In this document: positions 20,055 through 40,526 of the stretch, one piece after another
Position numbering within the stretch: position 1 is the stretch's first letter
Layout of the letters: the number at the start of each line of letters is the position of its first letter
Assembly (NCBI GenBank): GCA_963612725.1
Contig: CAVDWM010000005.1
Location: forward strand, 16,363-80,362
Reading direction: 5' to 3'
Length of the DNA stretch: 64,000 bases
From: Faecalibacterium prausnitzii
Lineage (GTDB): Bacteria > Bacillota > Clostridia > Oscillospirales > Acutalibacteraceae
Position numbers and translations under genes: made by a program
The notes under the pieces: model-generated
Seen by the model: the letters and a program-made list of their open reading frames with translations, nothing else
The model's database searches: none
What the model was told of the DNA's origin: nothing

Positions 20055-20104
20055 AAGCTCCTCCTTCTTCTTTTTCCGGGCAACACGGTCTTGCCTCAGA
20101 TGTT

Positions 20105-21757: not shown

Positions 21758-21889
21758 CGAAAGCACCTCTCTTTTGCTTTTCTTGTTTCGCAACGCCCAA
21801 AATATATGCGAATATCCTTCGGAAAAACATCGAATATAAGCCGATGCCTTTCCGAAAGAGGCTTGACGCAGCAAGCCCTTTCGCATTTG

Positions 21890-23721: not shown

Positions 23722-24726
23722 TTATTTCTTCTTTTTCCTGCTCAGAATCACCGCTGCGGCTGTTCCTCCACCGAGAACCGCCACACCGGGGACTGCTATA
23801 AGAGCAATCTTTTTCGGGGATGAGCCGGTCTTATCGGTATTTTTCTCCGTCGTTTCGCCGGGCATCTCCGAGGTATCAACCCGACTGTCGGCTGCCGACT
23901 CGCCGGTGATTGCTTCTGTCGTCTCCGCACTGCCGCCTGTCGAAGCGGGCGGCGCGGAGGAGGCTGTCTGCTCCGCAGCGGCTTTCGTTGGGGAGGTCGC
24001 CGCCGGAGCGGCTTTCCCGACCACAGTGACGGGAATCACACTGGAATAGGCTCTGCCGCCGAGGCTCGTCTCCACATAGCAGACATAGTACCGCGTTCCG
24101 GTCTTTGTCGTGTCACAGACGAGGATCGGGGCGTCCTCCGTATAGCCCTCCTTCGCTCCGACGGCAACGATGTCCTTGAGCTCGCCGCTTGCGGTCTCGT
24201 ACCATGTGTAGACCTTTATCTTGTCCCCGCCAGACGCCTCGGCGGAGCAGTGGAGCTTCAGAATCTTATCCTTTTCCACAGTAACCGACGCAGGCACTTT
24301 CAGCTGCGGCGGAGATTTTGTGCCGCCTACCGAGATGTACGCGCTACGCGAGGTCACGCTGCCCGTCTTGTTTGAAACAACGCAGTATATCTCCGCGCCG
24401 TCAAGGGCACTTCCGATTCCGTTGATAAAGAACCCGTTTCCGACATCATTTCTGCCGTATCCGTCGCCGACAACGCCCTCCTGCCACGGATGGTTTTCGA
24501 CGAAGGATCTTGTCGTGTTGTAGGCAACGCCTTTATACACGATGAACCAATCATATACAAGGTCGTCTCCGGTAGCCTCCACTGTCCAATATGCCGAGGA
24601 ATTTTCCGGAAATACCATATTCTGCGGCTGGAGGGTGATCTCTATTTTACCCGCCGCGAGCACCTGCGCAGGTGCCGAAACCGTAAGGATGAGTGCGAAC
24701 AGTAAAGCTGTCAGTATTCGTCTCAT
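23722..24726 (-). CDS. Secreted Ig-like-domain surface protein with S/T/A-rich stalk and C-terminal TM anchor
   Basis: Signal peptide MRRILTALLFALILTVSAPAQVLAAG. Two Ig-like beta-rich modules of about 100 aa, a PT/S-rich linker, and a C-terminal TM + KKKK. Confidence 0.55.
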   Translation of the reverse strand: MRRILTALLFALILTVSAPAQVLAAGKIEITLQPQNMVFPENSSAYWTVEATGDDLVYDWFIVYKGVAYNTTRSFVENHPWQEGVVGDGYGRNDVGNGFFINGIGSALDGAEIYCVVSNKTGSVTSRSAYISVGGTKSPPQLKVPASVTVEKDKILKLHCSAEASGGDKIKVYTWYETASGELKDIVAVGAKEGYTEDAPILVCDTTKTGTRYYVCYVETSLGGRAYSSVIPVTVVGKAAPAATSPTKAAAEQTASSAPPASTGGSAETTEAITGESAADSRVDTSEMPGETTEKNTDKTGSSPKKIALIAVPGVAVLGGGTAAAVILSRKKKK

Positions 24727-24751
24727 AGTTACCTCATTTCCGAGCGGCGCG

Positions 24752-25606
24752 TCAAAAGCTGCCGCCGCCTCCGCCGTGTGATGTTCCCGATGAGGATGTG
24801 TGAGTGCTCGAACCGCCTGAGCTGCTGCTTGACGACTTCGGCTTTTCGGTGCGCACCACATTTGTTGTAATAAACTCGTCTCTGCTGCCGGTGACAGCCA
24901 TGCTTCCGGGCACAACATAGCTGTTTGCCGCCGCCTGGAACCGCACCGTCTTGAGCTTCGCCTTCATTCTTCCGACAACGATAAGCGAGATCAGAACACC
25001 CACAATAATCGAAATGGGTATCCATATCGGCGAAAGCAGCTCTTTTGCGGCAGGTTCCTCCGGCATATTGTCAACATCGTACGGTTCGCCGTTTTCCGCC
25101 TGAACGGCAAAGGCGTCGCAGGTCTCGACATATGTCGTGAATGCAGCGGCGTAATCTCCCGCCGACAGATCGGGAACCATCTTCTCGCCGATATGCGCGA
25201 TTCCGGCATCGGTAAATATCTTTATTGCGCTCCCCGTTGTAGTTATGTGCCACTTGCGTTCGCCCATACTGATAAGGAACAAAACGCAGTTGTGATTCTC
25301 GCCCTGACCGTAGCCGTAATAGTCGCAGAAATCATCTGCATAATCCTCTATGTCTCTGTCGTCGAGAGCTTCTATCGTGACCACCGCGATATCCATATTA
25401 TGCTTCGCACTCGCCTCTTCAAGCTTCGTGAGAAGCTGCTGCTCCTCGGTATCGGTTAGGATATCGGCATCGTCTACGAGCAGCGGATACATCCTCTCCT
25501 GCGGAACGGTGCCGGAATAAGGAGGCGCGGGCACGGCAAACGACGGAACGACCGTCACAAGGCAAATCACAAGAGCAAAAAGCATTGCACAAATTTTCTT
25601 TTTCAT
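24752..25606 (-). CDS. TPM-domain protein (TLP18.3/Psb32/MOLO-1 family), membrane-anchored with Gly/Ser-rich tail
   Basis: Signal peptide, then the TPM core (YPLLVDDADILTDTEEQQLLTKLEEASAKHNMDIAVVTIEAL), a TM helix and a C-terminal SSSSSGGSSTHTSSSG tail. Confidence 0.7.
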   Translation of the reverse strand: MKKKICAMLFALVICLVTVVPSFAVPAPPYSGTVPQERMYPLLVDDADILTDTEEQQLLTKLEEASAKHNMDIAVVTIEALDDRDIEDYADDFCDYYGYGQGENHNCVLFLISMGERKWHITTTGSAIKIFTDAGIAHIGEKMVPDLSAGDYAAAFTTYVETCDAFAVQAENGEPYDVDNMPEEPAAKELLSPIWIPISIIVGVLISLIVVGRMKAKLKTVRFQAAANSYVVPGSMAVTGSRDEFITTNVVRTEKPKSSSSSSGGSSTHTSSSGTSHGGGGGSF

Positions 25607-25621: not shown

Positions 25622-26719
25622 TTACATATACAGCAGAATGTGGACGAGCCACGCAAGACCGTAGGTAGCGGCGCTCAGTGCCGCCGCCAGTCCCAGTCTC
25701 CAGCGCATCGCCGCAGACTTATCCACCGGCAGGTCTCCGACGAGCTTGCCCGTCTGTCCGTTCATGGCAAAGGTATACTGCTTGCCCTGATATGTTGTGT
25801 TGAGCAGCCATACAGGGTAAAGCGCATACTTCGCAACGCCGTTTTGCAGCCTTATAAAGCTGCTGTCGGGCGTCACGGAATCGTAGCCCTTAACAGTGTC
25901 CCTGAAGAGCTCTTCGACGCTGCTCTTGACGCGGCTGTTGGCTCTGTCAACGCTCTGCTCAGCAGTCACATCGTACTTATCCGCAAGATATCCGGCGAGA
26001 TAAGCCGTTTGGAAATTCACCGCTGCGGCGAGATCGAAGGGCTCTATCGACTCCATCAGGTCGTCCGCCATCTTCTCGGAGCCGTCCACCGGTATCGCCG
26101 CAAAATCGGTGCAGCCGTCCCGATACACTCTGTAGAGGCTCGTCTCCGTATAGTTATAGTCGCTGTCGCTCCATTTTCTTATCTTCTTCGCGTCATAAAC
26201 GACCGAGGCGTCGGCATGGGCGTCAAACAGCCAGAACGGAACATATATCCCCTTTATCTCGTCGATATGGTTCTCGTCCTTGAAGGTTTTCGGCAGCAGC
26301 CGTTTCCCCGAAATATGCTTTTTGAACGCTTCCTTTGCGTCCTTTTTATTGAGCTTGAACGGAATAACGATATCCGGCTTGAGCATTCCCGAAAACTGCT
26401 CCATCATAACGACCGGATTTCCGCAGAACGGGCAAGAGGTCGCGGCGGTTGTCTCGTCGCCGACTATCTCGCCTCCGCAGGACTTGCAGACATAGGAGCG
26501 CAGTCCGCCTTTTTCGTCCTCCGTCCATTCTCCGCCCGCGGCAGTCTGCCACTGCATATCGTCCGCGCCCGCGCCGCCGTCAAGCCCCGCGTCGAGACTT
26601 GCGAGCTCCTCCATAGCATATTCGGAGTCGCAGAACGGACATTTCATTTTTTGGATATCACTGTTGAATTCAAGCGCGCCGCCGCAGGCAGGGCACTTGT
26701 ATTCCTGCAAGGTTTGCAT
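25622..26719 (-). CDS. Double-zinc-ribbon membrane protein, short paralog of 20105..21757
   Basis: CPACGG..CPFCDS and CKSCGG..CPFCGN ribbons, a PDIVIPFKL core, an MNGQTGKL motif and C-terminal TM segments. Start at MQTLQEYK (GAGAGGAG RBS). Confidence 0.55.
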   Translation of the reverse strand: MQTLQEYKCPACGGALEFNSDIQKMKCPFCDSEYAMEELASLDAGLDGGAGADDMQWQTAAGGEWTEDEKGGLRSYVCKSCGGEIVGDETTAATSCPFCGNPVVMMEQFSGMLKPDIVIPFKLNKKDAKEAFKKHISGKRLLPKTFKDENHIDEIKGIYVPFWLFDAHADASVVYDAKKIRKWSDSDYNYTETSLYRVYRDGCTDFAAIPVDGSEKMADDLMESIEPFDLAAAVNFQTAYLAGYLADKYDVTAEQSVDRANSRVKSSVEELFRDTVKGYDSVTPDSSFIRLQNGVAKYALYPVWLLNTTYQGKQYTFAMNGQTGKLVGDLPVDKSAAMRWRLGLAAALSAATYGLAWLVHILLYM

Positions 26720-26830: not shown

Positions 26831-27703
26831 TTATTCGTACTTTTCCGCAAGACGGAAAAAGGCCTCCGTCAGTTCTTTGCCGGGATCAATGGGTGCATAT
26901 ATCCAGCTGCCGTCGGAAAAATCAAACGAAATCTTATATGTGGTTTCGTCAAGAATGATCAGACCGTCGTCCTCCGGCTCCACATATTGCACGACCTGAC
27001 CGATAAGCTGCTGCCTTTCTACGATATCAAGTATCTCCTTCGCCGCATCCTCCTCGACACGCCTGTCTTCCACTTCCGTGCGGTATTCCCTGTCGCCGAC
27101 TACGGCATCACACGAAAAGAGCCATGCGTTTTCTTCCCTTCTGAGAGTGAAGGTATGGGAGTATGAATAGTCCATGCAGCTGCGCACTATAAACACTTCC
27201 GTGAGCGTCCTTGTCTCCGCCGCCTCATAGTGAGTGTCGGCAAGAGAATAGAGATAATCCATCGTCTTCTCGCCGAGAGCCGTGTTCTTTTCTATCCTGT
27301 TCCCGTCGGAGAAGGTCACTGCGGTGATGCGCGTCGGCGCATCGGGGATATGAAAGAGCCGTGCCATGTCAAGGTGCCGGCGCAGACGCGTTATTTCCCT
27401 CTCCTCGCTGACAAGGGAAATGAGCTTCTCAGCCTCATCAGTCGATATCGGAAAACAGCTGAACGAGGTGTAATGCTCCTTTTGCTCTCCCACGCGGCAG
27501 CTTGCGGAAAAGAACCAGCCGCGATCCCCCTTCAGCAGAGCGAAGGAATATACGGGGTCTCTTTCCGTGCCGTAATATGAGGTACTCAGCGAAACGATTT
27601 CATCGGCAGTGAATTTTTTGTTCCCGCCGCAGCCGAACATACCGGAAATCAGGGACAGAAGTGACATAACAATCACCGCCTTACGCACAATTTTATTTTT
27701 CAT
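26831..27703 (-). CDS. Lipoprotein, hypothetical (290 aa)
   Basis: Signal peptide with a lipobox-like ...SGMFGCGG. Confidence 0.5.
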   Translation of the reverse strand: MKNKIVRKAVIVMSLLSLISGMFGCGGNKKFTADEIVSLSTSYYGTERDPVYSFALLKGDRGWFFSASCRVGEQKEHYTSFSCFPISTDEAEKLISLVSEEREITRLRRHLDMARLFHIPDAPTRITAVTFSDGNRIEKNTALGEKTMDYLYSLADTHYEAAETRTLTEVFIVRSCMDYSYSHTFTLRREENAWLFSCDAVVGDREYRTEVEDRRVEEDAAKEILDIVERQQLIGQVVQYVEPEDDGLIILDETTYKISFDFSDGSWIYAPIDPGKELTEAFFRLAEKYE

Positions 27704-27790: not shown

Positions 27791-28297
27791 CTACTGCTTG
27801 CCCTGATTCGTTTTCTTTGCTTTTGTCGTCTGCTTTTCGGCGGTCTTTCGTCCGCCGGACAGTGTCTTTGAAATATCCGCCACGGCTGCGCCCCCGAAAA
27901 CGAGGGACGCAACGGAAAGGATAAATCCGAAAGTGTTCGTGCTCGACAGCTTATAGTCACCCTTTGCGGTTCTGTACACCTCGACCGAAACGGTCTCGCC
28001 GCTATATGTTTTGGTGCCGAAGGTTTTCTTGCCGGTGTACGTCTTGCCGTCAACGGTGAAGCTCAGCGTCGCCTTCCACTTTTCGTCCGTTATATCGCCG
28101 TCATCGTCCTTCCTGTAGCTGTGCTCCACACGAGTGACCACGGCATCGACGACGCGCACGTCGGAGGACTTTCTGTATGCCCGTCCGCCCGTCAGGGTCG
28201 TGAAAAGCCCGTACAGTCCGAGGAGTATAAAAACCGCCGCGAAAACGATGGAAAATGTCAATGTTTTGCCTTTTTTGGTCTGGGGTGCTTTTTTCAT
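27791..28297 (-). CDS. DUF3592-like membrane protein (TM, beta-rich domain, TM), paralog A
   Basis: Topology and motifs ...TAVVT..(D/E)-rich..KxxAxLxFxVDGKTYxG...VxVEVYRTxKGxYKLS are shared with 30665..31159. Confidence 0.5.
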   Translation of the reverse strand: MKKAPQTKKGKTLTFSIVFAAVFILLGLYGLFTTLTGGRAYRKSSDVRVVDAVVTRVEHSYRKDDDGDITDEKWKATLSFTVDGKTYTGKKTFGTKTYSGETVSVEVYRTAKGDYKLSSTNTFGFILSVASLVFGGAAVADISKTLSGGRKTAEKQTTKAKKTNQGKQ

Positions 28298-28427
28298 AAG
28301 CTCTACCCTCCGTCAATCGAACCGTACCTTAAGGTCGGTCTATGTCCTCGGAGCTCCGCGCCGCAAGCCCATACGCATCTCCGTCGGTGAGGTCATGCGC
28401 TTGCTTTTGTGCGGAGCTCTGCCGTCG

Positions 28428-29333
28428 TCAGCCCTTCGGCGTTCCGCATCCCTCGCAGAAATTACCGTTGTTAACGGTTCCGCAATTCGGGCAGGTCCAC
28501 GATGCGGCAGCTGCCTGCTGAACCGGCTGCTGGGCATATCCGCCCTGCATAGGCTGTTGAGCATATCCTCCCTGCATGGGCTGCTGAGCGTAACCGCCCT
28601 GCATGGGCTGCTGAGCATAACCGCCTTGCATGGGTTGCTGAGCGTACCCGCCCTGCATGGGCTGCTGAGCGTAACCGCCCTGCATGGGCTGCTGAGCATA
28701 ACCGCCCTGCATGGGCTGACCGAAGCCGCCCGCGGACGCGCCGCGGCGCAGAAGCGCATTCGTTATCTCGTTCGCCTGACGCTCATACTCTCTGTAAAGA
28801 TCGGTGAACTGGCTCTCGGGTCTGTTGTTCTCACTGAGCTCGAACTCTATTTCGGAGAACCACGGAGAGTTGACCTGTATCTCAATCTTGAACTCATATT
28901 CGCACTCATAGCGCGGGGGCGAATAGCTCTCGCGTTTGCCGTCCTGAGTTTCGAGGAATATCTCGTCCTTATGCTCCTCTATATCGGCTCTGCAAGAGGT
29001 GACCTGCGAAAGGTCGATGAGATCCGGGTTGGCTCTGCGCCAGTCCGAGGCGCGGGTGACGATAAACTTGCCCGCGTTCATGTCGATGTAAATTTTCGTG
29101 CGGTCGCCGTAAATGAGAGAGGGATTGAAGGACGAGAGTTTTTTCTCGTTCTCCTCACGGTAGGCAAGCTGCTGCTTTATCTCCTCCACGGTCGAGCGGC
29201 GGCGGTCGCTGAAGAACGGCGAAAGCTTCGAGGCGCACTCCTTGCAGAGATTTCCGTCCTCCAGCTTGCGGTTTCCGAGAAGGCCTATCTTCTCGCCGCA
29301 AACATCACAGTATTTTTTGTCAAAAAGTCCCAT
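28428..29333 (-). CDS. DUF4428-like zinc-ribbon protein with (GGYAQQPMQ)x8 repeat and C-terminal WxCxxCG zinc ribbon
   Basis: N-terminus MGLFDKKYCDVCGEKIGLLGNRKLEDGNLCKECASKL. Eight tandem 9-aa repeats. C-terminus WTCPNCGTVNNGNFCEGCG. AAGGAGGG RBS. Confidence 0.55.
   Translation of the reverse strand: MGLFDKKYCDVCGEKIGLLGNRKLEDGNLCKECASKLSPFFSDRRRSTVEEIKQQLAYREENEKKLSSFNPSLIYGDRTKIYIDMNAGKFIVTRASDWRRANPDLIDLSQVTSCRADIEEHKDEIFLETQDGKRESYSPPRYECEYEFKIEIQVNSPWFSEIEFELSENNRPESQFTDLYREYERQANEITNALLRRGASAGGFGQPMQGGYAQQPMQGGYAQQPMQGGYAQQPMQGGYAQQPMQGGYAQQPMQGGYAQQPMQGGYAQQPVQQAAAASWTCPNCGTVNNGNFCEGCGTPKG
28525..28725. repeat. Tandem 27-bp repeat (about 7-8 copies; consensus ctgcatgggctgctgagcgtaaccgcc on the + strand), coding
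   Basis: Read directly. It encodes the GGYAQQPMQ repeats on the minus strand. Confidence 0.85.
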
Positions 29334-29347
29334 TAAAGACCCTCCTT

Positions 29348-30652
29348 TTATTTTTCGGTCGCTTTTACGACCCATTTTGCATTGTCAGTCTGTAAACCGT
29401 AGCCGCAGAACGAACAGCAGCCGTGTTCGTCCGGAATAAAATTCGCGCCGCAGGACGGGCAGTCTCTTTCAGTAAAGAGCTCGCCCTTGCCCTTTCTTCT
29501 TTGGGGATATCTCGCCCTTTGCAAAACAAGCGTCTTTGTGAATTTTTTCGTGTACGGTTTTTTGTTTTTCGGAAGATAAATCTCGCGTCCGTAGATTTGA
29601 GCGGTTATCTCGGTCGTTTTCTCCGTATTGACGACCTTTTTCAAAATGACTGTGCCGATGCTGTGATCCATCAGATCGGCATTTTTTATTTCCTTGTACA
29701 GTGCCTCGTCGATGCATGAGCGCAGGTAGTTCTCGGAATACCTGACTATTTCACCCGCCGGCTTTTCCCGTTTTGTTTTTCTGTGAATCAAAAGCGCAAC
29801 GGTAGTTGCCAGAACGAAAGCCGCCGCCCCGACCCCTGCCGCCAGAGACACCTCCGTATCCTTGATGAGCCAGAGGCACAGGAACACGCAGACAAAAAGG
29901 ACAAGCGACGACGCAAGCAGCTGCAAGGCTCTTCGCTGATTCGTCCCGAGCTCCTCGTATATCTCGAAAGCTTCGGTCTGCCAGTCGTAAAAATCGCTGT
30001 GAATCATTCCGCCGCAGTACGGGCAGACCGCCTGCTGACTGTCAAGCCCGATCTGTGCGCCGCAGGACGGGCAGCTTATCTCCGACCGGTCGTCATAGTA
30101 GCTTTTCTTTTTCTCCGTCCTGTCGGAGGTGCGAATATGCCTTGACTCAAGGAGCCTGACATAGGCATTTTTGCGATACAGCTCGTATACGGGCTTGCCG
30201 TCCCGCTTGGACACGAGGCGCTCCAGTACACTGCACCGCAAAACAGCCTCGCGCCATTCCCGACCGTCGTCGCTCCACCTTTTGAAGTCGTTCTTCGGCA
30301 GCGGAACAACATCCGCCAATCGGATATCGCGGAAAAGCCCTCTTTGCGCAAGCAGGTCAAGCTGCCGCTCGGTATTTTTGCGGAACACCATATCCATTCT
30401 CGCAGGGAGCAGCTCCTTATCCGCCTTGCTCAGCGGACGGAGAGCTTTCTCAAGGGCTTCTCTGACATCGCCGTGAAGACCCATTCCCTGCAGCGGTGTC
30501 TCGCGCTCGGCAAGCAGCCTTTTCATTTTCGCTTTTTTCATATTCTGCGGCAGGAGACCGGAAATATCGATATCGATAATCTTTTCGCCGACAAAATATG
30601 CGCAGAGCACAGTGACCGCCGCCGCTATAAGCAACGCATCCGTTAAGCTCAT
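29348..30652 (-). CDS. Zinc-ribbon/TM protein (434 aa) with two CPSCG-type ribbon pairs
   Basis: CPSCGAQIG...CPYCGG and CPSCGANF...CSFCGY, an N-terminal TM and two central TM helices. Confidence 0.5.
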   Translation of the reverse strand: MSLTDALLIAAAVTVLCAYFVGEKIIDIDISGLLPQNMKKAKMKRLLAERETPLQGMGLHGDVREALEKALRPLSKADKELLPARMDMVFRKNTERQLDLLAQRGLFRDIRLADVVPLPKNDFKRWSDDGREWREAVLRCSVLERLVSKRDGKPVYELYRKNAYVRLLESRHIRTSDRTEKKKSYYDDRSEISCPSCGAQIGLDSQQAVCPYCGGMIHSDFYDWQTEAFEIYEELGTNQRRALQLLASSLVLFVCVFLCLWLIKDTEVSLAAGVGAAAFVLATTVALLIHRKTKREKPAGEIVRYSENYLRSCIDEALYKEIKNADLMDHSIGTVILKKVVNTEKTTEITAQIYGREIYLPKNKKPYTKKFTKTLVLQRARYPQRRKGKGELFTERDCPSCGANFIPDEHGCCSFCGYGLQTDNAKWVVKATEK

Positions 30653-30664
30653 CGGAATACCCCT

Positions 30665-31159
30665 TTATTCTTTCGCCTCGGCCTTTTTGCCCTTTGCCGC
30701 CTTTTTATCCGAATTATCGGTAAATATGGAGTACGCCATTGCCACGGTAAGGAAGCCGCCGACGGGAATCGCTATGCAGTAAACGAGAAAGACGACGGGG
30801 TTTCTGTCCGGACTGAGCTTATATGTGCCCTTCGATGTCCGATAAACCTCGACCGTGACCTTATCTCCCTTGCTTATTTTTCGGTAGTAGGTCTCGGTCC
30901 CCTTATAGGTCTTCCCGTCAACGTCAAAGGCGAGCTTTGCCCTGTACTTGTAATCGCCGTAATCCTCATCGTCGCCGATATCCTTATAATCCGTGACGAC
31001 CGCCGTGACCTTGCGGATATCCTCGGAGTTCTTGTACTCCCGACTTGCGACCCTGCTGAAAACAACGCCGCAGATACCCGCCGCAAGCACGGCGACGGCA
31101 AAAAGCAATGCCGCAACGGAATATAATTTGTTCTTTATTTTACTCGTATCCTTGCTCAT
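30665..31159 (-). CDS. DUF3592-like membrane protein, paralog B
   Basis: Start at MSKDTSK (GGAGGAG RBS). Conserved ...VTAVVTDYKDIGDDEDYGDYKYRAKLAFDVDGKTYKGTETYYRKISKGDKVTVEVYRTSKGTYKLS. Confidence 0.5.
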   Translation of the reverse strand: MSKDTSKIKNKLYSVAALLFAVAVLAAGICGVVFSRVASREYKNSEDIRKVTAVVTDYKDIGDDEDYGDYKYRAKLAFDVDGKTYKGTETYYRKISKGDKVTVEVYRTSKGTYKLSPDRNPVVFLVYCIAIPVGGFLTVAMAYSIFTDNSDKKAAKGKKAEAKE

Positions 31160-31292
31160 AACGGCTCCTCCGATAAGGCTCAGGGATGAAGAGGCGGGCT
31201 CTGTCATATACGGCTGCATTTAAAAGCCGTATCGGTATTGTGCCAAAACAAAATTGACTGTACCGAAAACTGTTTTTATATTTTTCGCGAGA

Positions 31293-32708
31293 TCACTGCT
31301 TGTCGTTCTCGTCAAACAGGTCGCCGCATTCGGGGCAGAATTTCGGAGGATTCGCCGGATCTGCAGGCTCCCAGCCGCACTTGTCGCAGCGATAGAGCGG
31401 TGCGCCCGCAGGCTTTTGAGCACCGCAGTTCTGGCAGAACTTGCCCTTGTTCACCGTGCCGCACGAGCATCTCCAGCCCTCCGCGTCAGCGGGCTTGGGT
31501 GCGCCGCACTCGGGGCAGAACTTGCCGGTCGCAGTCGCGCCGCAGGAGCATTTCCAGCCGTCCGCCGGCTGGGGCTCCGGCTTCTTTGCGCCGCAGTTCG
31601 GGCAGAATTTTCCGTTCACGGTCGCGCCGCACGAGCATTTCCAGCCGTCCGCCGCAGGTGCCGCAGGTGCGCTTTGCTGCGCCTGAGCCTGCTGTTGCTG
31701 CTGACCCATGGCAAAGAGGTTCTGCGCGTTCATTCCGCCGCCGGCATTCATAGCCATGCCCATGCCCAAAAAGCCTGTCATTGCGCCAGCCTGATTGCCT
31801 GCCGCAGTCTTCATCGCGTCAGCCTGAGCGCCGACGAGGGTCGCCGCCGCCATGGTGGGATCGCGCATGATAGCGGAACGCTGCGCCTGCTTGATGAGCT
31901 CCGCATCCTCATCGGGAAGCGTGACGGAGCCGAGGGCTATGGTGATGACCTTGATTCCGCGCAGCTCGCCCCACTTTGCGGAGAGGGCGGTATTCATTGC
32001 CGCTTCAAGCTCGGTGTTGTGAGCCACTATCTGATTGGGGCGAAGCTCGAGATCCGAGAGCTGGGCAAATGCGGGCTGAAGTGCGCTGATGAACTCCGTC
32101 TTGAGCTGGTTGTCTATTTCCTCACGGGTATAATCCTGCTCGACATTGCCGCAGACATTGGTGTAGAAGAGCATGGGGTCGTCTATCTTGTAGGAATAGA
32201 CGCCGGAGCAGCGAACCGCGACATCGATATCCAGCCCTATCTTTGAATCGACAACGCGGAAGGGGATGGGATTCGGAGTGCCGAATTTGTTATCCATTAT
32301 CTCCTTGGTGTTGAAATAATAGACGCGCTGATCCTTTCCCGTATCTCCGCCGTAAGCGAAACGCTTGCCGATGGTCTTGAAGGTTTGCTTTATGCTGTCG
32401 CCGAGAGAGCCCGAGAAAATCGAGGGCTCGGTGGAAGCGTCGTATGTAAACTCTCCGGGCTCCGCACAGAACTCAACGACCTTGCCCTGCTCGACTATCA
32501 TCATGCACTGACCGTCCGCAACGGCTATTCCCGAGCCGTTTGAGATGATATTGTCGCTGCCCTTCGTGTTCGACGATCTGTCGCCGACACGCTTTTGTCC
32601 CTTTGTAACAAGCAGCTCCTTCGGCATTGCCTCACAATAGAAAAATTCTTTCCACTGATCGGCAAGAACGCCGCCGACCGCTCCGATACCGGCTTTAATA
32701 AGTCCCAT
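31293..32708 (-). CDS. SPFH/band-7 domain protein (YdjI-like 'virion core protein-like') with three C-terminal zinc-ribbon repeats
   Basis: N-terminus MGLIKAGIGAVGGVLADQWKEFFYCEA, typical of the YdjI-like SPFH family. Met/Gly/Gln-rich linker. 3x (DGWKCSCGATVNGKFCPNCGA) plus a fourth CDKCG..CPECG ribbon. Confidence 0.6.
   Translation of the reverse strand: MGLIKAGIGAVGGVLADQWKEFFYCEAMPKELLVTKGQKRVGDRSSNTKGSDNIISNGSGIAVADGQCMMIVEQGKVVEFCAEPGEFTYDASTEPSIFSGSLGDSIKQTFKTIGKRFAYGGDTGKDQRVYYFNTKEIMDNKFGTPNPIPFRVVDSKIGLDIDVAVRCSGVYSYKIDDPMLFYTNVCGNVEQDYTREEIDNQLKTEFISALQPAFAQLSDLELRPNQIVAHNTELEAAMNTALSAKWGELRGIKVITIALGSVTLPDEDAELIKQAQRSAIMRDPTMAAATLVGAQADAMKTAAGNQAGAMTGFLGMGMAMNAGGGMNAQNLFAMGQQQQQAQAQQSAPAAPAADGWKCSCGATVNGKFCPNCGAKKPEPQPADGWKCSCGATATGKFCPECGAPKPADAEGWRCSCGTVNKGKFCQNCGAQKPAGAPLYRCDKCGWEPADPANPPKFCPECGDLFDENDKQ
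31418..31650. repeat. Three tandem copies of a repeat of about 78 bp, coding (zinc-ribbon modules)
   Basis: Read directly: repeated ...gcaccgcagttctggcagaacttgcc...gagcatctccagcc... units. Confidence 0.7.
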
Positions 32709-33336: not shown

Positions 33337-33813
33337 TTATGGCAGCTGCGTCCATGTGTCGGAAACTGCATCGTACTCATAGACGACCCTGTCAAGATAG
33401 TCAAAGCACAGATATATCTCCCTGACGAACTGACCGTCACGGCTCGTACCCAGGGCATAAACATTGCAGTACACCCCATCCTGAAGTGTCGTCTCGCCCG
33501 TGTCCATGACCGACATGCCCATGTCAAGATATCTGCCCGCTCCCGCACTGCACTCACGCAGCACCTGCGGAACCATTTCTATGGGTATGTCTGTCCTCTG
33601 ATTTGACGGAGCCTCTCCGCCCGCCGAAAATGTCTCAGACGCTTTCTCCGTCTCCCTCTGCGTCTCCCGCTCGGTCGTCTCGGGGTGCTCCTGCGTCGAA
33701 GAAACCCGAGTCTCTCCGTCCTTCACGCAGCCGCACAGCAGCAGAGTCGGCAGCAGCACGGCAAGCAGCACCGCCGCAGCCCTTCTCGTCACTCTCCTCA
33801 CGGCAAAAATCAT
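33337..33813 (-). CDS. Lipoprotein, hypothetical
   Basis: Signal peptide ...AAAVLLAVLLPTLLLCGC lipobox, then a TE-rich linker. Confidence 0.5.
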   Translation of the reverse strand: MIFAVRRVTRRAAAVLLAVLLPTLLLCGCVKDGETRVSSTQEHPETTERETQRETEKASETFSAGGEAPSNQRTDIPIEMVPQVLRECSAGAGRYLDMGMSVMDTGETTLQDGVYCNVYALGTSRDGQFVREIYLCFDYLDRVVYEYDAVSDTWTQLP

Positions 33814-34108
33814 CCTCCCTCTCACCGTTGACTTTCTTTATAAAATCCGATGTTGATGCGGAATAAGGATTGACGTTCCTTTTCGGTTCGTCCGATGTCC
33901 CCGAGCAGCGGCTCACCCAGCTGATGATAACCGTTCTGAGCAAAACGGCAGCCAGCCATACCGACAGGAGCAGCACGAACCACAGGACGGATATTTTAAA
34001 AACGAAGTGAGCCGCGAGTGCCGCCCACGCCGGAATCGACCAGCCGATGTCCAGCGCCAGATTCATCAGAAAGCAGAGCAAAAAACCCTTGCGGTCGCGC
34101 CTTCTCAT
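33635..34108 (-). CDS. Possible small 2-TM membrane protein (its 3' part overlaps the next lipoprotein gene in another frame)
   Basis: The ORF contains convincing TM helices (FLLCFLMNLALDIGWSIPAWAALAAHFVFKISVLWFVLLLSVWLAAVLL). The C-terminal 60 codons overlap 33337..33813, so its true end is uncertain. Confidence 0.25.
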   Translation of the reverse strand: MRRRDRKGFLLCFLMNLALDIGWSIPAWAALAAHFVFKISVLWFVLLLSVWLAAVLLRTVIISWVSRCSGTSDEPKRNVNPYSASTSDFIKKVNGEREDDFCREESDEKGCGGAACRAAADSAAVRLREGRRDSGFFDAGAPRDDRAGDAEGDGESV

Positions 34109-35866: not shown

Positions 35867-36484
35867 TCAGTAGAGAGGATTTATCCATCCGTTGGATATC
35901 ATATAAAAGGCGAGGTCAACCGACTTTGCAAAGCCGGTTTTTGCGAGCATATTCTTCTTATGATATTTCACCGTGTCCTCGCTGATATACAGCTCGCCCG
36001 CTATCTCCTTATTTGTCATGTGCTTGCACATCAGGCGCAATATCTCCATCTCGCGCTCGGTCAGCGGCGCCTCGCCGCGGGGCATGGGAATGGTCTTCGG
36101 CTCCGGGAAGCATCCGCCGCCCGCCATGACCTCCCGTGCGGTCTGCTCAAATTCCGAGAGACTGCGGCTTTTATATATGAACGCATGTGCTCCCGCCTCC
36201 CTTGCCCGCGGGGCATAGGATATCTCGTCGAAGGCGGTCATAACTATGACCTTTATGTCGGGGAAGGCATCGCGCACCTCCTTTGTCGCCCGCAGTCCGG
36301 ACGCGCCGCCCTCGGTGCACACATCCATAAAAACTATATCCGGCTCAAGCTCGCCGCACATTTTGACCGCGTGATCCGCGCTCGAAATCCCTCCGACAAC
36401 GCAGAAGTCCCCGCTCGCGTCAAACAGACGCTCAAGGGATTCGCGCATTGATTCGTGATCGTCAACAACCAGCACTCTGGTCAC
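35867..36484 (-). CDS. Response regulator, NarL/LuxR family (REC + HTH_LuxR)
   Basis: VLVVDDH...D54-like (FMDV) ...KVIVMTA, with C-terminal LTEREMEILRLMCKHMTNKEIAGELYISEDTVKYH. Confidence 0.85.
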   Translation of the reverse strand: MTRVLVVDDHESMRESLERLFDASGDFCVVGGISSADHAVKMCGELEPDIVFMDVCTEGGASGLRATKEVRDAFPDIKVIVMTAFDEISYAPRAREAGAHAFIYKSRSLSEFEQTAREVMAGGGCFPEPKTIPMPRGEAPLTEREMEILRLMCKHMTNKEIAGELYISEDTVKYHKKNMLAKTGFAKSVDLAFYMISNGWINPLY

Positions 36485-37917
36485 AGAGCTTCACCTCCTG
36501 GAATATAAACCGAAAGTATAAAACGCGGCGTTGCTTCGACAGTCACCCTGCCGTCAAAAAAACCGACCTTTTTGCGTATCGTTCCGAGTCCGCCGCCCTC
36601 GGTGAAATCGGGCTTCGGCGGAATACCGTTGTCGGTTATCCGCATCGAAAAATCTCCGCCGCGCCGTTCAAGACATATGTAAATTTCCGACGCAAGCCCG
36701 TGGCGCACGGAATTGGTCACAGCCTCGGTTATTATATCCATACCGAGCCACGCATGGTTTTCGTTTGACGGCAGTCTGCCCTCAACGCAGAGCTTCACGC
36801 CTATCTCCTTCATCAGTGCGCGCAGAGTATCCAGCCTGTCCTCCGCCGTGACTACGGGTTCGCGTTCGCTGAGCTCGTCGGGGAGGTCGGAGGCGAATTT
36901 GCGTATAAGCTCCTCGTCCGGCTCCTTACCCTCACGCAGGCTGCGGAAAAGCAGCGCGAGTCGCTGACCCAACACATCATGGAAGCGGCTGCGTATTTTC
37001 AGCATCTCCTCCTCGCGGCAGAGATAGCGGATATCCGATATCATCCTCTGGAGCTCAAGTCCCCTGCTCTGCAGCATCCTGCGCTGTTCGTTGAGCTCGT
37101 TCGTCAGCCTCCACTGCGCCGTAATATCCGCGGCGGAGACCTGAGTGAAGTGCTTTGAGTCAACGTCAATTCCGCACTTTGCAAAAAGCCACACCCTGCC
37201 GTCCGGAAGAACAAAGACCGGTTTTTCGCCGATATACGCCTCCGCGCTTCCGTTGAGGACATCGCCCCGCACGAGACGCTCGTAAAACTCCTTACCGTCG
37301 CGGCAGACCTCGCCGCAAAGCGCCTTCATAAGCCGCTGCATTCTGTTGTTGACGAGCAGGATATTGCCGTCCCGTTCGCAGAAAAGAATGCCCGAATGAA
37401 GCTCATCGACCGCAAGCTTCACCGAATCGCGGGAGAGCTCGTTTCTGATATCTCTTCGGCAAACCGCCATAAGATGCACGGCGCGGACGATAAGCAGCAC
37501 CTCCGCAGCGGCAAAGAGCACCGCGACCGCCGCATACGGCAAACGCTCGACAAACGGCAGCGTCACCGCCGAAACCGCCGCGCACAGCAAGGGGTCGAAC
37601 ACGCGGCAAAATATTATAACGGCGGCGCACGACGCCGCAACCGCCGCAAAAGCAATGCATCTTAAAGCAACATACTCGCTGCCGGCGGGCAAAAGCTCGG
37701 CGGCGTTGAGCTGAACACGCGAAATAAGCATGAGCATAACTATGCTCTGAGCGGTGACGGCAATCTGAGAAATATATGACACGGTGTGCCGCTTATCTTT
37801 TTTCGTGCTGCGGATGACCATATAGACGAGCGCACCGGTCTGAACGCCGACGCAGGCTATCGACAGCATACAGACAAGCACCCTGACTTTTTCGGGAAGA
37901 AAATAGAAGGATGTCAT
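36481..37917 (-). CDS. Sensor histidine kinase (multi-TM, HisKA_3 + HATPase_c)
   Basis: H-box FHDVLGQRLALL (HisKA_3), 6 N-terminal TM segments, and C-terminal ATPase motifs (ITEAVTNSVRHG...DNGIPP...GGGLG). Its stop overlaps the RR start. Confidence 0.8.
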   Translation of the reverse strand: MTSFYFLPEKVRVLVCMLSIACVGVQTGALVYMVIRSTKKDKRHTVSYISQIAVTAQSIVMLMLISRVQLNAAELLPAGSEYVALRCIAFAAVAASCAAVIIFCRVFDPLLCAAVSAVTLPFVERLPYAAVAVLFAAAEVLLIVRAVHLMAVCRRDIRNELSRDSVKLAVDELHSGILFCERDGNILLVNNRMQRLMKALCGEVCRDGKEFYERLVRGDVLNGSAEAYIGEKPVFVLPDGRVWLFAKCGIDVDSKHFTQVSAADITAQWRLTNELNEQRRMLQSRGLELQRMISDIRYLCREEEMLKIRSRFHDVLGQRLALLFRSLREGKEPDEELIRKFASDLPDELSEREPVVTAEDRLDTLRALMKEIGVKLCVEGRLPSNENHAWLGMDIITEAVTNSVRHGLASEIYICLERRGGDFSMRITDNGIPPKPDFTEGGGLGTIRKKVGFFDGRVTVEATPRFILSVYIPGGEAL

Positions 37918-40322
37918 AACTTATCCCCTCCCGGCACGCGCAGGCTCAGTCCCGCAGTTTCATCAAGGTCCTTGACGGATACCGACCCGCCGATGCCCCT
38001 TATCGCTTCGCTTAGCTCGTCGCTCACGCTCCTGCCGTCAAAGGAGGACGGGAGCAGCCGCATCTCTATCGCCCCGTCGGCTTCGACAAGCTGTTCGAGA
38101 ACGGTGCCGTCCTCCCCTGTGCACGCGTCTATCACAAAATAGAAAAAGTCGTACATAACGCTGCCGCATCTGGGAGACACCTCGCCCTTTGCGGTGCACA
38201 CCGTGCTCACTCTGATATCGGCATATGACGCAAATTCGGACAGCTCGTCTATGTACACGGCAAGCTCCTCTATCGGCATACCGCCGCCCTCCTGTTCCTT
38301 GAAGAACAGGCTGCACCTGCGTTTGATATAGCACATCAGCAGAGTTATCAGCGCGATATCCCTCTGCTTGTTTTTCGAGCGTTCGAGCCCGTCTATCATA
38401 TCGTTCATGCGGTCAAGGTGCCGCTCCATTTCCGCGTTGAGCAGCCCCATAAGACGGACATTTTCCTCGGCTGCGGCGAGCCTGTACCGGCTCTCGCGCT
38501 CCGCGACAAGGAGCTTGTTTGCCGATGTCAGCCTGACGACATTCTCCCGTATCTCCTCCTGCATTCTTAGAATTTCGGAGATGTCCTCCTGCCACACGAC
38601 CATGCCCCCCGGTATACCGTCGGCATAAAGCAGGGTGTCCGTGTGCTGGAGCAGAGGATGGTCTATATCGTCTCTGAGCTTCTCCCAGTCGTCACGCGGT
38701 ATCGGAACCGCGCCGGCAGAGCTGAGCCTCACCTCGCCGTATGAGTCAATTATCTGCATTCCGAGCGGCGAATTTGAGAAAATCATATCATACTTCTTGT
38801 TGACCGGAACAAGCCCCGTCCTCATCGCAAGCTCCGCAAACAGCAGCACGAAAACGCAGGAGACTGTCGTTATGTCGCTGTCCCGCGCAACGGGCACCTC
38901 TGCGGCATATGCCACACAATAGGCGAGGAGCAGCAGCTCGCTGAGTATCGGCAGGATAAGCCTTGTGCGGTTGAAGCCGCGCATGGCTTTTCTGATAAGT
39001 ATGGCGGTAGACATGAGCACCTGCGACGCCGCAAATGCAAAAATCAAATAATAGCCGATGTTGTAGCTGTAGCTTCCGTCCCAGTTATTCAGGTCTCCGA
39101 GCCTGAACACCATGCCGTGAAGGTCGTTTGTAAACACCATAAGCAGCAGCGCGACATATACGGCAAAGCAGCCGCATACGAAAGATTCGCGGCGCTTCGT
39201 GCGTTCGGGGAAATCGATGAGCATGGACAGCGGCAGCATCAGAAGCGGCAAGCCCATCATAAAGATATAGTAGGCATACCACAGGTATCGCCCCAAAACA
39301 GGGTTACTCTCCGTCTGATACTTCAGCACGCACACGAGCATCCACGCTATCACCATGCCGCTGAACGCACGAACCATCGCCCTGATATCGCTGCGGCGAA
39401 CGCGGCGAAGGGCACAGCCCATCCATATGACCGCGCCCATTATGACCGCAGCCGCCATAATCTTGTGTTCAAACGATTCCGAGGCGGAATAGAGTCGCGT
39501 TCTGAAAACCCGGCGTTTAAAAATACTGATAAAATTCCTTGTCTGCCTTGCAAACTGTTCGGCGTCCCCGACCCTTTCGGCGCGAGCATAGTCGGACAAG
39601 GACGGATATCCCTCCGCTTCGGTCTTGTCTGCACGCAGACCCGCTGCGGCGACGAGCTCCGCCGTGTCGGGCGAAAAATTCATCCCGCGTTCGGACACGA
39701 CGCCGACTCCGTAGAGCAGCGTTCCCTCGGCAGGGACGATGATTTCTATATTTTTTCCCTCGCTCTTCATACGGACGGCCTGATAATCCCAGCAGATATT
39801 GACGGGGGAATCCGTCCCGAGGGCAAGCCTTCCGTCCCTTTCAAGGGAAGCGAGTAAATCGACCGCCGTCTTTGACATATAGGATTTTTCGAGCCCGTAA
39901 GACACGGCGGCAAAAAGCATCCTCTCGTTCTCGGGCGAAAAGCCCACCGGGCAGGATATATTTTCAAGGTCGCGCCAGCCGTTTATTTCGCCGTCAAACC
40001 GAGAGCGGTCAACGGCAATGACTGCGGCGACGGCAAAATGCTCATACCAGTTTTCGGCAAGCCCCGCATCGACGGCGGCGCGAGCCTGAACATCGAATGC
40101 GGCAAACGCCTTCTTTCCGTCTCCGTCAAAGGAGAGCTGCGAATCGAGACCGTTGCCGTCGTCAAAGGTGCAATCCTGCGCGATATTACGAAGCAGCTGC
40201 GTATATATCGGGTTCACGCTTCGGGAAAAGACGACCCTTTCCCCCTGCTCGGCGCTGCATGAGCAAAAGCAAAAAACGGCGGCAAAAAGCAAGAGCACAG
40301 CGGCTGTTATCCTGCCCTTGTG
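37914..40322 (-). CDS. Atypical sensor protein: lipoprotein-like SBP-type extracellular domain + about 7 TM + coiled-coil and a degenerate kinase-like C-terminus
   Basis: Signal/lipobox (LLLFAAVFCFCSCS), an extracellular domain of about 270 aa, a 7-TM block, then a coiled coil (LRMQEEIRENVVRLTSANKLL...). No canonical HisKA H-box was found. Its stop overlaps the HK start (ATGA). Confidence 0.5.
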   Translation of the reverse strand, partial: HKGRITAAVLLLFAAVFCFCSCSAEQGERVVFSRSVNPIYTQLLRNIAQDCTFDDGNGLDSQLSFDGDGKKAFAAFDVQARAAVDAGLAENWYEHFAVAAVIAVDRSRFDGEINGWRDLENISCPVGFSPENERMLFAAVSYGLEKSYMSKTAVDLLASLERDGRLALGTDSPVNICWDYQAVRMKSEGKNIEIIVPAEGTLLYGVGVVSERGMNFSPDTAELVAAAGLRADKTEAEGYPSLSDYARAERVGDAEQFARQTRNFISIFKRRVFRTRLYSASESFEHKIMAAAVIMGAVIWMGCALRRVRRSDIRAMVRAFSGMVIAWMLVCVLKYQTESNPVLGRYLWYAYYIFMMGLPLLMLPLSMLIDFPERTKRRESFVCGCFAVYVALLLMVFTNDLHGMVFRLGDLNNWDGSYSYNIGYYLIFAFAASQVLMSTAILIRKAMRGFNRTRLILPILSELLLLAYCVAYAAEVPVARDSDITTVSCVFVLLFAELAMRTGLVPVNKKYDMIFSNSPLGMQIIDSYGEVRLSSAGAVPIPRDDWEKLRDDIDHPLLQHTDTLLYADGIPGGMVVWQEDISEILRMQEEIRENVVRLTSANKLLVAERESRYRLAAAEENVRLMGLLNAEMERHLDRMNDMIDGLERSKNKQRDIALITLLMCYIKRRCSLFFKEQEGGGMPIEELAVYIDELSEFASYADIRVSTVCTAKGEVSPRCGSVMYDFFYFVIDACTGEDGTVLEQLVEADGAIEMRLLPSSFDGRSVSDELSEAIRGIGGSVSVKDLDETAGLSLRVPGGDKL

Positions 40323-40526
40323 CATCTGCCTCACCTCCGTTTCCCCGCCGAAGCGCAAAATCACGACATCATATGCTTATTCTATTATATTACACCCTAC
40401 GGCTTATTTCAACAGCCTTCTGTTTTGCAAAATTCACATTAAATTACAAAAGGGACCGGGCATTCAGATGCAGAATTGATCTGCGCTGAATGCCTCAGCC
40501 CCTGAGAGCAATGCTCCGTAATATAA

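What the first reader, a model, noticed from the sequence alone, without database searches (positions are those of the whole stretch)
27791..32708. Duplicated two-gene module: [zinc-ribbon protein with Q/G/M-rich low-complexity linker + C-terminal W-x-C-x-C-G...F-C-x-x-C-G ribbon] followed by [DUF3592-like TM protein]
The SPFH protein (31293..32708) is immediately followed by DUF3592-like paralog B (30665..31159). The DUF4428-like protein (28428..29333) is immediately followed by DUF3592-like paralog A (27791..28297). Both upstream proteins have different N-terminal domains but the same C-terminal architecture: a prion-like Gln/Gly/Met/Ala-rich linker, then WxC(P/S)xCG(A/T)(V/T)NG(K/N)FC(P/E)xCG zinc ribbon(s). 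The two DUF3592-like proteins align over about 80 aa (…TAVVT…KxxAxLxFxVDGKTYxG…VxVEVYRTxKGxYKLS). This pattern suggests a conserved functional pair, with a cytoplasmic Zn-ribbon adaptor and a small membrane partner, each pair recruited to a different effector domain.
Basis: seen in the sequence. Interest (0 to 1): 0.65.

Follow-up and report, generated by a model that had tools for sequence, protein, structure and literature searches.

The report
Small membrane protein pairs with another gene
The two small membrane-protein genes are real paralogs, but across gut Clostridia their constant neighbour is an overlooked 434-residue zinc-ribbon membrane protein, inside a gene cluster that resembles the Bacillus SamGHI (YdjGHI) membrane-stress system, so the "duplicated two-gene module" is a local accident of gene order.

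Summary
The two small 2-TM proteins are 41% identical over 124 aa (E 3e-25). Both upstream proteins end in a low-complexity linker plus Zn ribbons.

The proposed pair, a Zn-ribbon-tailed protein followed by a small TM partner, is not what is conserved.
- In the reverse test, 74/77 loci found through that gene have the small TM gene directly upstream. The other 3 have it one gene away.
- The SPFH gene is directly upstream of the small TM gene in only 13/34 species.
- DUF4428→small TM occurs only in the window's own species (1/17). The A-type copy ancestrally follows the 434-aa gene.
- The β-domain of the small protein is predicted to face outward, away from cytoplasmic ribbons.

The 434-aa protein has 3 TM helices, Tim44/NTF2-like cytoplasmic domains and two ribbons. 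The cluster also encodes SamG-, SamH- and SamI-like proteins and an upstream two-component system, but no PspA. SPFH + linker + Zn ribbon is the published SamI/YdjI architecture.

Verdict: a variant SamGHI-like cluster containing an undescribed small-TM/ZnR-membrane gene pair. Interest is moderate to low.

The parts
31293..32708 (-). SamI/YdjI-like cytoplasmic SPFH protein (471 aa). Band_7_1 domain, Met/Gly/Gln-rich linker (about 31644-31823) and four C-terminal Zn ribbons (about 31320-31643).
   Evidence: Pfam Band_7_1 E 3.4e-18. No TM segment predicted. An 81-87-nt x3 repeat encodes the ribbon units. 81-87% identical across genera. The architecture matches that published for SamI.
30665..31159 (-). 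Small 2-TM protein, B-type (164 aa). Layout: TM helix, five-stranded β-domain, TM helix, with Lys-rich termini.
   Evidence: Paralogy E 3e-25. AF2 model pLDDT 74.8. Predicted topology N-in/C-in with the β-domain outside. DUF3592 match is sub-threshold only. Always directly upstream of the ZnTM gene.
29348..30652 (-). ZnTM_434, a 3-TM protein whose bulk is cytoplasmic. It has two Tim44/NTF2-like α+β domains, each carrying a CxxC...CxxC ribbon. This is the conserved partner gene of the small TM protein and was not mentioned in the finding.
28428..29333 (-). DUF4428 protein (301 aa). N-terminal DUF4428 ribbon, central domain, 7 x QPMQGGYAQ linker (27-nt repeat, about 28500-28745) and one C-terminal ribbon (about 28443-28499).
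   Evidence: Pfam PF14471 E 6.6e-18. Tandem repeat. Tail is homologous to the SPFH tail. Repeat number varies between strains.
27791..28297 (-). Small 2-TM protein, A-type paralog (168 aa).
   Evidence: A-type copies form one clade. They sit directly after ZnTM in 6/7 species that have them, and after DUF4428 only in the window and L027.
26831..27703 (-). Lipoprotein (290 aa). In relatives it is the usual downstream neighbour of the DUF4428 gene.
   Evidence: Signal/lipobox sequence. Homologs follow DUF4428 in most loci.
25622..26719 (-). SamG/YdjG-like protein. Two N-terminal Zn ribbons, a large cytoplasmic domain and a C-terminal TM anchor.
   Evidence: Zn-ribbon Pfam hits at residues 22-52 and 93-118. 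TM segment at 361-379. 65-71% identical in relatives. Architecture as described for YdjG.
24752..25606 (-). SamH/YdjH-like membrane protein. TPM domain outside the membrane and a Gly/Ser-rich cytoplasmic tail.
   Evidence: Pfam TPM_phosphatase E 4.3e-34. TM segments at 5-23 and 194-212.
33337..33825 (-). Conserved lipoprotein (162 aa), found upstream of the SPFH or small TM gene in most related loci.
   Evidence: Homologs in most related loci.
35867..40364 (-). Three-gene signalling unit: HisKA_7TM protein (37914-40364), histidine kinase (36481-37917) and LuxR-type response regulator (35867-36484).
   Evidence: Pfam hits. Present upstream of the cluster in 20 of the 35 species loci; in most of the rest the contig ends before that region.
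20105..21886 (-). Second, divergent SamG-like paralog (593 aa).
   Evidence: 23% identity to SamG-like homologs, E up to 2e-24. Pfam DUF1451 ribbon. Conserved in L008.

Best explanation
The region is the middle of one long co-directional cluster found in gut Clostridia (Oscillospiraceae, Ruminococcaceae, Lachnospiraceae).

Known-looking parts: counterparts of the Bacillus subtilis SamGHI (YdjGHI) membrane-stress proteins.
- A cytoplasmic SPFH scaffold with a low-complexity linker and Zn-ribbon tail (SamI-like).
- A tail-anchored double-ribbon protein (SamG-like).
- A TPM-domain membrane protein (SamH-like).
- An upstream 7TM-sensor / histidine kinase / LuxR-type regulator unit. No PspA is present.

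Additional part: a tightly linked gene pair.
- A small 2-TM protein whose roughly 100-aa β-domain faces outside.
- ZnTM_434, a 3-TM protein with almost nothing outside the membrane and two cytoplasmic Tim44/NTF2-like domains with Zn ribbons.

Shown: the small gene was duplicated once, long ago. The extra A-type copy sat right after ZnTM_434, and in the window's lineage it changed places with the DUF4428 gene. That swap creates the appearance of a duplicated [ribbon protein + small TM] module.

Inferred:
- The small protein and ZnTM_434 assemble through their TM helices into one transmembrane unit. It joins an external β-domain to cytoplasmic membrane-binding and ribbon domains.
- This unit works beside the SamG/H-like receptors as a docking or sensing platform.
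- The SPFH and DUF4428 proteins are soluble clients. Their shared flexible linker plus double-ribbon tail is the docking tag for that platform, as SamI depends on SamG/H in B. subtilis.
For: - Paralogy: 41% identity over 124 aa, E 3e-25.
- B-type small TM→ZnTM adjacency in 35/35 species loci, with gaps of 2-51 nt.
- Reverse direction: 74/77 ZnTM-seeded metagenome loci have the small TM gene directly upstream, and the other 3 have it one lipoprotein gene away. Also 4/4 further ZnTM-seeded contigs.
- The pair occurs without SPFH, SamG-like, SamH-like or DUF4428 genes in L046, L013/15, L029-31 and L037/38.
- A-type copies form one clade that mirrors the B-type subtree. They lie directly after ZnTM in 6/7 species.
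- Complementary predicted topology. The small protein has K/R-rich termini (0.34-0.37 K+R per residue) and a net-negative loop. ZnTM has 3 TM helices with its bulk on the K/R-rich side.
- SamGHI-like parts: Band_7_1, TPM, and double ribbon plus C-terminal TM. These match the published architectures.
- Where contigs extend far enough, every locus with SPFH also has the SamG-like and SamH-like genes (13/13).
- Tail homology between the SPFH and DUF4428 proteins in 11/13 genomes.
- Precedents from preprints. A DUF3592 protein is predicted to be a cofactor of a polytopic membrane enzyme. DUF4428 replaces the TM anchor in SNIPE homologs that lack TM helices.
Against: - No physical interaction was tested. 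No multimer prediction was available.
- Homology to the B. subtilis SamG/H/I sequences was not tested directly. Only domain architecture and Pfam families were compared.
- No pspA lies in the cluster, so the output of the system could differ from the Bacillus one.
- SPFH is directly upstream of the small TM gene in 13/34 species and 55/77 metagenome loci. A functional SPFH-small TM link is therefore not excluded.
- ZnTM and the SamG-like protein share only the ribbon at sequence level (hhalign, 26 columns, probability 87%).
- The metagenome loci collapse to 13 clusters at 90% identity, so they are not 77 independent observations.
- The AF2 models are of medium confidence (pLDDT about 75).
- Regulation by the upstream two-component system is inferred from position only.
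Confidence: 0.7

Rival explanations
1. Each ribbon-tailed cytoplasmic protein (SPFH, DUF4428) has its own cognate small TM receptor encoded just downstream. The two-gene module was duplicated and fitted with different N-terminal effector domains.
For: Both arrangements exist in the window with similar spacing of 133 and 130 nt. SPFH→small TM adjacency recurs in 13/34 species and 55/77 metagenome loci. The tails are homologous. The small proteins have short Lys-rich cytoplasmic ends that could in principle be contacted.
Against: DUF4428→small TM occurs in 1/17 species. In relatives the A-type gene precedes DUF4428 or occurs without it, and 14 species have DUF4428 with no A-type copy. In 19/34 species a small TM gene has no ribbon-tailed gene upstream. 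Tandem small TM genes occur before ZnTM (L004, L017, L042). The upstream genes are not paralogous outside the tail, and the two 'modules' share no DNA similarity. The β-domain is predicted to be outside the cell. From established knowledge of the B. subtilis pspA-ydjGHI operon, SamI works without any such small protein.
Confidence: 0.1
2. The small TM proteins are not subunits of anything. They are co-regulated envelope proteins, for example external binding or spacer proteins. Their position next to ZnTM reflects shared transcription and translational coupling only.
For: There is no interaction evidence. Copy number (1-2) and position (before or after ZnTM) vary. One species tolerates a lipoprotein gene inserted between the two.
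Against: The two-way association is nearly absolute across families of Clostridia, with 2-51-nt gaps. It survives loss of every other cluster gene. The topologies are complementary.
Confidence: 0.15
3. The cluster is an anti-phage defence or abortive-infection island built from membrane, SPFH and Zn-ribbon parts, not an envelope-stress system.
For: A DUF4428 domain occurs at the N-terminus of some homologs of the membrane-associated defence nuclease SNIPE. SPFH and Zn-ribbon proteins occur in some defence contexts (own knowledge, not tested here).
Against: None of the 10 cluster proteins hits PADLOC. No nuclease, ATPase or other effector domain was found. The cluster sits in a stable chromosomal context, with the same gene order in many species, beside housekeeping genes (carB, purF, pyrG) and its own two-component system. 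No mobile-element genes were found in the cluster (17.4-43.7 kb); the window ends were not scanned.
Confidence: 0.05

Closest known systems
Bacillus subtilis PspA-SamGHI (pspA-ydjGHI) membrane-stress system
   Same: The three protein architectures match. [quoted passage not shown] SamG has two Zn ribbons, an α/β domain and a TM segment. SamH is a TPM-domain membrane protein with a low-complexity tail. In Bacillus, SamG and SamH recruit SamI to the membrane.
   Different: No pspA in the cluster. Gene order differs: the SPFH gene comes first and is separated from the SamG/H-like genes by five other genes. Control is probably by a 7TM-sensor/HK/LuxR unit, whereas the Bacillus operon is σW-dependent. 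The SPFH tail has four ribbons. Extra conserved genes are present (small TM, ZnTM_434, DUF4428 protein, lipoproteins). Sequence homology to the Bacillus proteins was not tested.
DUF3592 (PF12158) membrane proteins
   Same: The layout is the same: TM helix, small β-domain, TM helix. There are weak, consistent Pfam matches in 19/24 family members. One DUF3592 protein (ML2271) is predicted to be an accessory subunit of a larger membrane protein.
   Different: All scores are below the Pfam gathering threshold, including the more distant members. The family here is small, with 194 representatives at 50% identity out of 1.84 billion, and it carries its own motifs (EYKNSxDxR, VDGKTY, VEVYRTxxGxYK).
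Tim44 C-terminal domain / PARC6-CDP1 / NTF2-like membrane-associated domains
   Different: Sequence identity is only 7-14%. A Zn ribbon is inserted before the last strand. The unit is duplicated around a TM hairpin. There is no sequence-level relation to the SamG-like protein beyond the ribbon.
COG4260-type SPFH proteins (JGI name: 'membrane protease subunit, stomatin/prohibitin family'; Pfam Band_7_1)
   Same: The window SPFH protein hits Band_7_1 over almost the whole profile. Fragments carrying its tail are annotated with this name.
   Different: None of substance. The window protein is an ordinary, highly conserved member with a multi-ribbon tail.

Membership tests
SamGHI / YdjGHI system | Cytosolic SPFH (Band-7) protein with no TM segment, a low-complexity linker and a C-terminal Zn finger (SamI) | tested here: met
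   Band_7_1 E 3.4e-18. No TM segment predicted. Linker and ribbons seen directly in the sequence. Definition.
SamGHI / YdjGHI system | Membrane protein with two N-terminal Zn ribbons, an NTF2-like domain and a TM segment (SamG) | tested here: inconclusive
   Two ribbons (Pfam, residues 22-52 and 93-118) and a C-terminal TM at 361-379 are present.
SamGHI / YdjGHI system | TPM-domain membrane protein with a low-complexity tail (SamH) | tested here: met
   TPM_phosphatase E 4.3e-34. TM segments at 5-23 and 194-212. Gly/Ser-rich C-terminus.
SamGHI / YdjGHI system | pspA (PspA_IM30) encoded in the same operon | tested here: not met
   No PspA_IM30 hit for any ORF between 17.4 and 43.7 kb. No gene in the related loci carries a PspA Pfam tag.
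SamGHI / YdjGHI system | Sequence homology to B. subtilis SamG, SamH and SamI | not testable with these tools
Only shared Pfam families and architectures were compared.
DUF3592 (PF12158) | Score at or above the Pfam gathering threshold (25.3 bits) | tested here: not met
   Window B-type protein scores 14.1 bits, E 0.075. The best family member has E 0.0031. 19/24 members give weak hits. Distant members P0111 and P0167 are also sub-threshold.
DUF3592 (PF12158) | β-rich domain flanked by two TM helices | tested here: met
   AF2 model: helix 4-44, five strands 48-115, helix 121-147. Two TM segments predicted in 45/59 members.
DUF4428 (PF14471) | N-terminal CxxC...CxxC domain scoring above the gathering threshold (27.8 bits) | tested here: met
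   64.8 bits, E 6.6e-18.
Known anti-phage defence systems (PADLOC-DB) | Any cluster protein matching a defence-system model | tested here: not met
   No hits at E <= 0.001 for 10 cluster proteins.

The most novel reading that the evidence does not exclude
The small TM protein and ZnTM_434 together form a previously undescribed split transmembrane device. An external β-domain is coupled through a five-helix bundle to cytoplasmic Tim44/NTF2-like lipid-binding and Zn-ribbon domains. The device senses or marks envelope damage. It recruits SPFH and DUF4428 proteins through a portable linker plus double-ribbon docking tag. That would make it a PspA-independent branch of the SamGHI-type membrane-stress machinery, specific to gut Clostridia.
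Probability: 0.25. Interest if true: 0.55.

Novelty: new variant of a known kind. Interest (0 to 1): 0.35.

Why it matters
SamGHI/YdjGHI is a recently characterised way of recruiting an SPFH scaffold (and PspA) to stressed membranes. How the receptor senses stress, and what the Zn-finger tail binds, are still open.

This cluster shows that abundant gut Clostridia carry an expanded version without PspA. It contains two additional, strongly conserved and unnamed families: the small 2-TM protein and the 434-aa Tim44-like ZnR membrane protein. It also contains a second client protein (DUF4428) that bears the same tail as the SPFH protein. That gives concrete handles for experiments, namely a candidate docking tag and candidate receptors.

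The finding as originally stated, a duplicated adaptor-partner module, does not hold. For annotation, the small proteins should be linked to the ZnTM gene, not to the SPFH or DUF4428 genes.

Tried and rejected
- **Apparent SPFH::small-TM fusion ORF in L039 (625 aa).** It is an artefact of a 118-N scaffold gap.
- **Protein search with the 62-aa double-ribbon tail, to find other N-terminal domains carrying it.** It returned only short SPFH fragments. There is therefore no evidence that the tail is attached to many effector domains.
- **Profile-profile comparison of ZnTM_434 with the SamG-like protein.** Only the 26-column ribbon matches, so ZnTM is not a detectable SamG paralog.
- **Concerted evolution of the SPFH and DUF4428 tails within a genome.** Own-genome identity shows no excess.
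- **Recent segmental duplication.** The two 'modules' share no DNA repeats.
- **Defence-system reading.** No PADLOC hits.
- **Terminator and promoter scan.** Nothing above shuffled expectation, and no convincing terminator in the two 130-nt gaps.
- **Source annotations.** No names for any cluster protein.
- **PDB sequence searches with the SPFH and SamG-like proteins.** No relatives found.
- **Locus search with the broad 59-sequence small-TM alignment.** It was too divergent for the tool, so the closer alignment was used instead.

Full report
**1. Observation**

The region lies in a run of minus-strand genes.
- The 471-aa protein (31293-32708) is an SPFH protein: Pfam Band_7_1, E 3.4e-18. It has no predicted TM segment. 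Its C-terminal third is a Met/Gly/Gln-rich linker, three W-x-C-x-C-G...F-C-x-x-C-G ribbons encoded by an 81-87-nt triple repeat, and a longer terminal ribbon.
- The 301-aa protein (28428-29333) has an N-terminal DUF4428 domain, E 6.6e-18. It also has seven QPMQGGYAQ units from a 27-nt tandem repeat and one ribbon.
- The two small proteins (30665-31159, 27791-28297) are 41% identical over 124 aa, E 3e-25. Both starts have GGAGG-type ribosome-binding sites.
- The ribbon tails match weakly within the window (13/22 residues, E 2e-5). In relatives the DUF4428 tail is a two-ribbon module 51-63% identical over about 50 aa to the last two SPFH ribbons (E 1e-16 for L002; 11 of 13 genomes).

Three caveats apply.
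- 'DUF3592-like' is only a sub-threshold resemblance (14.1 bits against a cut-off of 25.3; weak hits in 19/24 family members).
- The two 'modules' share no DNA similarity.

**2. What the neighbourhood is**

Reading along the minus strand, the cluster runs as follows:
1. HisKA_7TM protein, histidine kinase and LuxR-type response regulator (35867-40364).
2. A 5'-nucleotidase and small lipoproteins.
3. The SPFH-ribbon protein.
4. Small TM, B-type.
5. ZnTM_434.
6. DUF4428-ribbon protein.
7. Small TM, A-type.
8. A lipoprotein.
9. A protein with two N-terminal ribbons and a C-terminal TM anchor (25622-26719).
10. A TPM-domain membrane protein with a Gly/Ser-rich tail (24752-25606).

Items 3, 9 and 10 have the architectures published for B. 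subtilis SamI/YdjI, SamG/YdjG and SamH/YdjH.
- YdjG has two Zn ribbons, an NTF2-like domain and a TM segment, and YdjH has a TPM domain plus a low-complexity segment.

No PspA_IM30 protein is encoded between 17.4 and 43.7 kb. No cluster protein matches a PADLOC defence model. The flanks hold housekeeping genes, including carB, purF, pyrG and ABC/MATE transporters.

**3. Comparative test of the proposed pair**

The small TM family is narrow. It gave 26 hits in the 5.8-billion-protein word-indexed search and 194 representatives at E <= 0.001 among 1.84 billion. No hit carries a Pfam domain or a name.

A scan of one genome per GTDB species returned 35 loci, all from gut Clostridia. Homology maps of these and of metagenome contigs show four things.
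- (i) A B-type small TM gene is followed directly by a ZnTM_434 homolog in 35/35 species, with gaps of 2-51 nt and mostly 12-15 nt.
- (ii) The gene directly upstream is the SPFH gene in 13/34 assessable species. In two more an extra ORF intervenes. In 19/34 it is a 215-223-aa membrane protein or lipoprotein without ribbons, or something else.
- (iii) The pair small TM-ZnTM occurs without any SPFH, DUF4428, SamG-like or SamH-like gene in several loci (L013/15, L029-31, L037/38, L046).
- (iv) A-type copies exist in 7 species. They lie directly after ZnTM in 6 of them, and before DUF4428 in L002, L007 and L008. Only the window and L027, which is 96% identical and the same species, have DUF4428→A-type. 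Of 17 species with a DUF4428-ribbon gene, one has a small TM gene after it.

In the reverse direction, 74 of 77 assessable metagenome loci seeded with ZnTM have a small TM gene directly upstream. The other three, all from one species, have it one lipoprotein gene away. These loci fall into 13 clusters at 90% identity. Four further ZnTM-seeded contigs agree.

A neighbour-joining tree puts all A-type proteins in one clade whose branching mirrors the B-type subtree of the same genomes. This indicates one ancient duplication of the small gene alone. Independent tandem duplications before ZnTM occur in L004, L017 and L042. An apparent SPFH::small-TM fusion in L039 is a scaffold-gap artefact.

**4. 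Anatomy of the real pair**

*Small TM protein.* The AF2 model (pLDDT 74.8) has a long TM helix, five β-strands (residues 48-115) and a second TM helix. Across the family both short termini are K/R-rich (0.34-0.37 per residue, net about +3.5), and the roughly 100-aa loop is net negative. By the positive-inside rule the termini are cytoplasmic and the β-domain is outside.

The two proteins are therefore topologically complementary. One is almost all outside the membrane and the other almost all inside.

**5. Most likely mechanism**

Shown:
- gene linkage;
- paralogy;
- predicted folds and topologies (model-based, not experimental);
- tail homology;
- architectural match to SamGHI.

Inferred:
- The small TM protein and ZnTM_434 associate through their TM helices. 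Together they form a transmembrane unit acting beside the SamG/H-like receptors.
- The SPFH scaffold and the DUF4428 protein are soluble clients brought to this platform by their shared linker plus double-ribbon tail.
- The upstream two-component unit controls expression.

Two preprint observations fit this model. A DUF3592 protein is predicted to be a cofactor of the polytopic enzyme MptB. DUF4428 or PH domains replace the TM anchor in SNIPE homologs that lack TM helices.

**6. Comparison with known systems, and novelty**

The cluster works like, and probably is, a SamGHI-type system.
- Two of the three protein architectures were tested and met.
- The SamG middle domain was not modelled.
- The pspA feature was tested and not met.
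- Direct sequence homology to the Bacillus proteins was not testable here.

The small TM/ZnTM pair and the DUF4428 client are not mentioned in the papers found on SamGHI or PSP systems. DUF3592 and DUF4428 each occur in only three papers of the library.

I rate this a new variant of a known kind. The specific claim of a duplicated adaptor-partner module is not upheld. Interest is moderate to low (0.35). It would rise if the small TM/ZnTM unit proved to be the receptor for the ribbon tail.

Noticed in passing
window 28500-28745 (within the DUF4428 gene): The 27-nt x7 tandem repeat encoding QPMQGGYAQ appears to vary in copy number between strains. Members of the protein's 90%-identity cluster are 283, 292, 301, 310, 319, 328 and 337 aa long, in steps of exactly 9 aa. 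Relatives in other genera lack the repeat and instead keep a second Zn ribbon, which the window species has lost.
   Followed up: partly
window 29348-30652: The 434-aa ZnR membrane protein looks like an internal duplication. Each half has an α+β Tim44/NTF2-like domain with a CPSCGA...C..CG ribbon inserted before the last strand, and the halves lie on either side of a TM hairpin. It is 54-74% identical across the related species loci, more conserved than the small TM protein (36-69%).
   Followed up: partly
window 20105-21886 and 19359-20126: A second, divergent SamG-like paralog (593 aa, DUF1451-type ribbon, about 23% identical to the SamG-like family) and a 255-aa gene lie downstream of the cluster. 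Both are conserved in L008.
   Followed up: no
window 33337-33825; homologs in most related loci: A lipoprotein with a conserved C-terminal domain sits upstream of the SPFH gene, or of the small TM gene where SPFH is absent, in most loci. It seems to be another core member of the cluster.
   Followed up: no
window 35867-40364; related loci: A HisKA_7TM protein, a histidine kinase and a LuxR-type response regulator precede the cluster in 20 of the 35 species loci; in most of the rest the contig ends before that region. In several relatives they are followed by a 127-139-aa gene that may be a degenerate receiver domain (not Pfam-scanned). This unit is a likely regulator of the cluster.
   Followed up: partly
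window 34267-35760: A 5'-nucleotidase / metallophosphoesterase gene lies between the response regulator and the cluster. Among the loci examined this occurs only in the window and its conspecific L027.
   Followed up: no
window 31293-32708 and homologs: The SPFH-ribbon protein is unusually conserved, at 81-87% identity across genera. The other cluster proteins are 41-74% identical in the same loci. The Met/Gly/Gln-rich linker shares in this conservation.
   Followed up: no
L002 8222-8974; about 250-aa genes in L007, L008, L011, L020, L022, L035, L044: Many relatives carry a further 250-aa protein with a weak DUF4428-type N-terminal ribbon (E 3.5e-4) between the lipoprotein and the SamG-like gene. 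The window lacks it.
   Followed up: no
window 23722-24918: A secreted protein with a C-terminal TM anchor follows the TPM gene. Its longest ORF overlaps the TPM gene, and the real start is probably the MRRILT signal peptide near 24726. Homologs occur in L002, L009 and L027 only.
   Followed up: no
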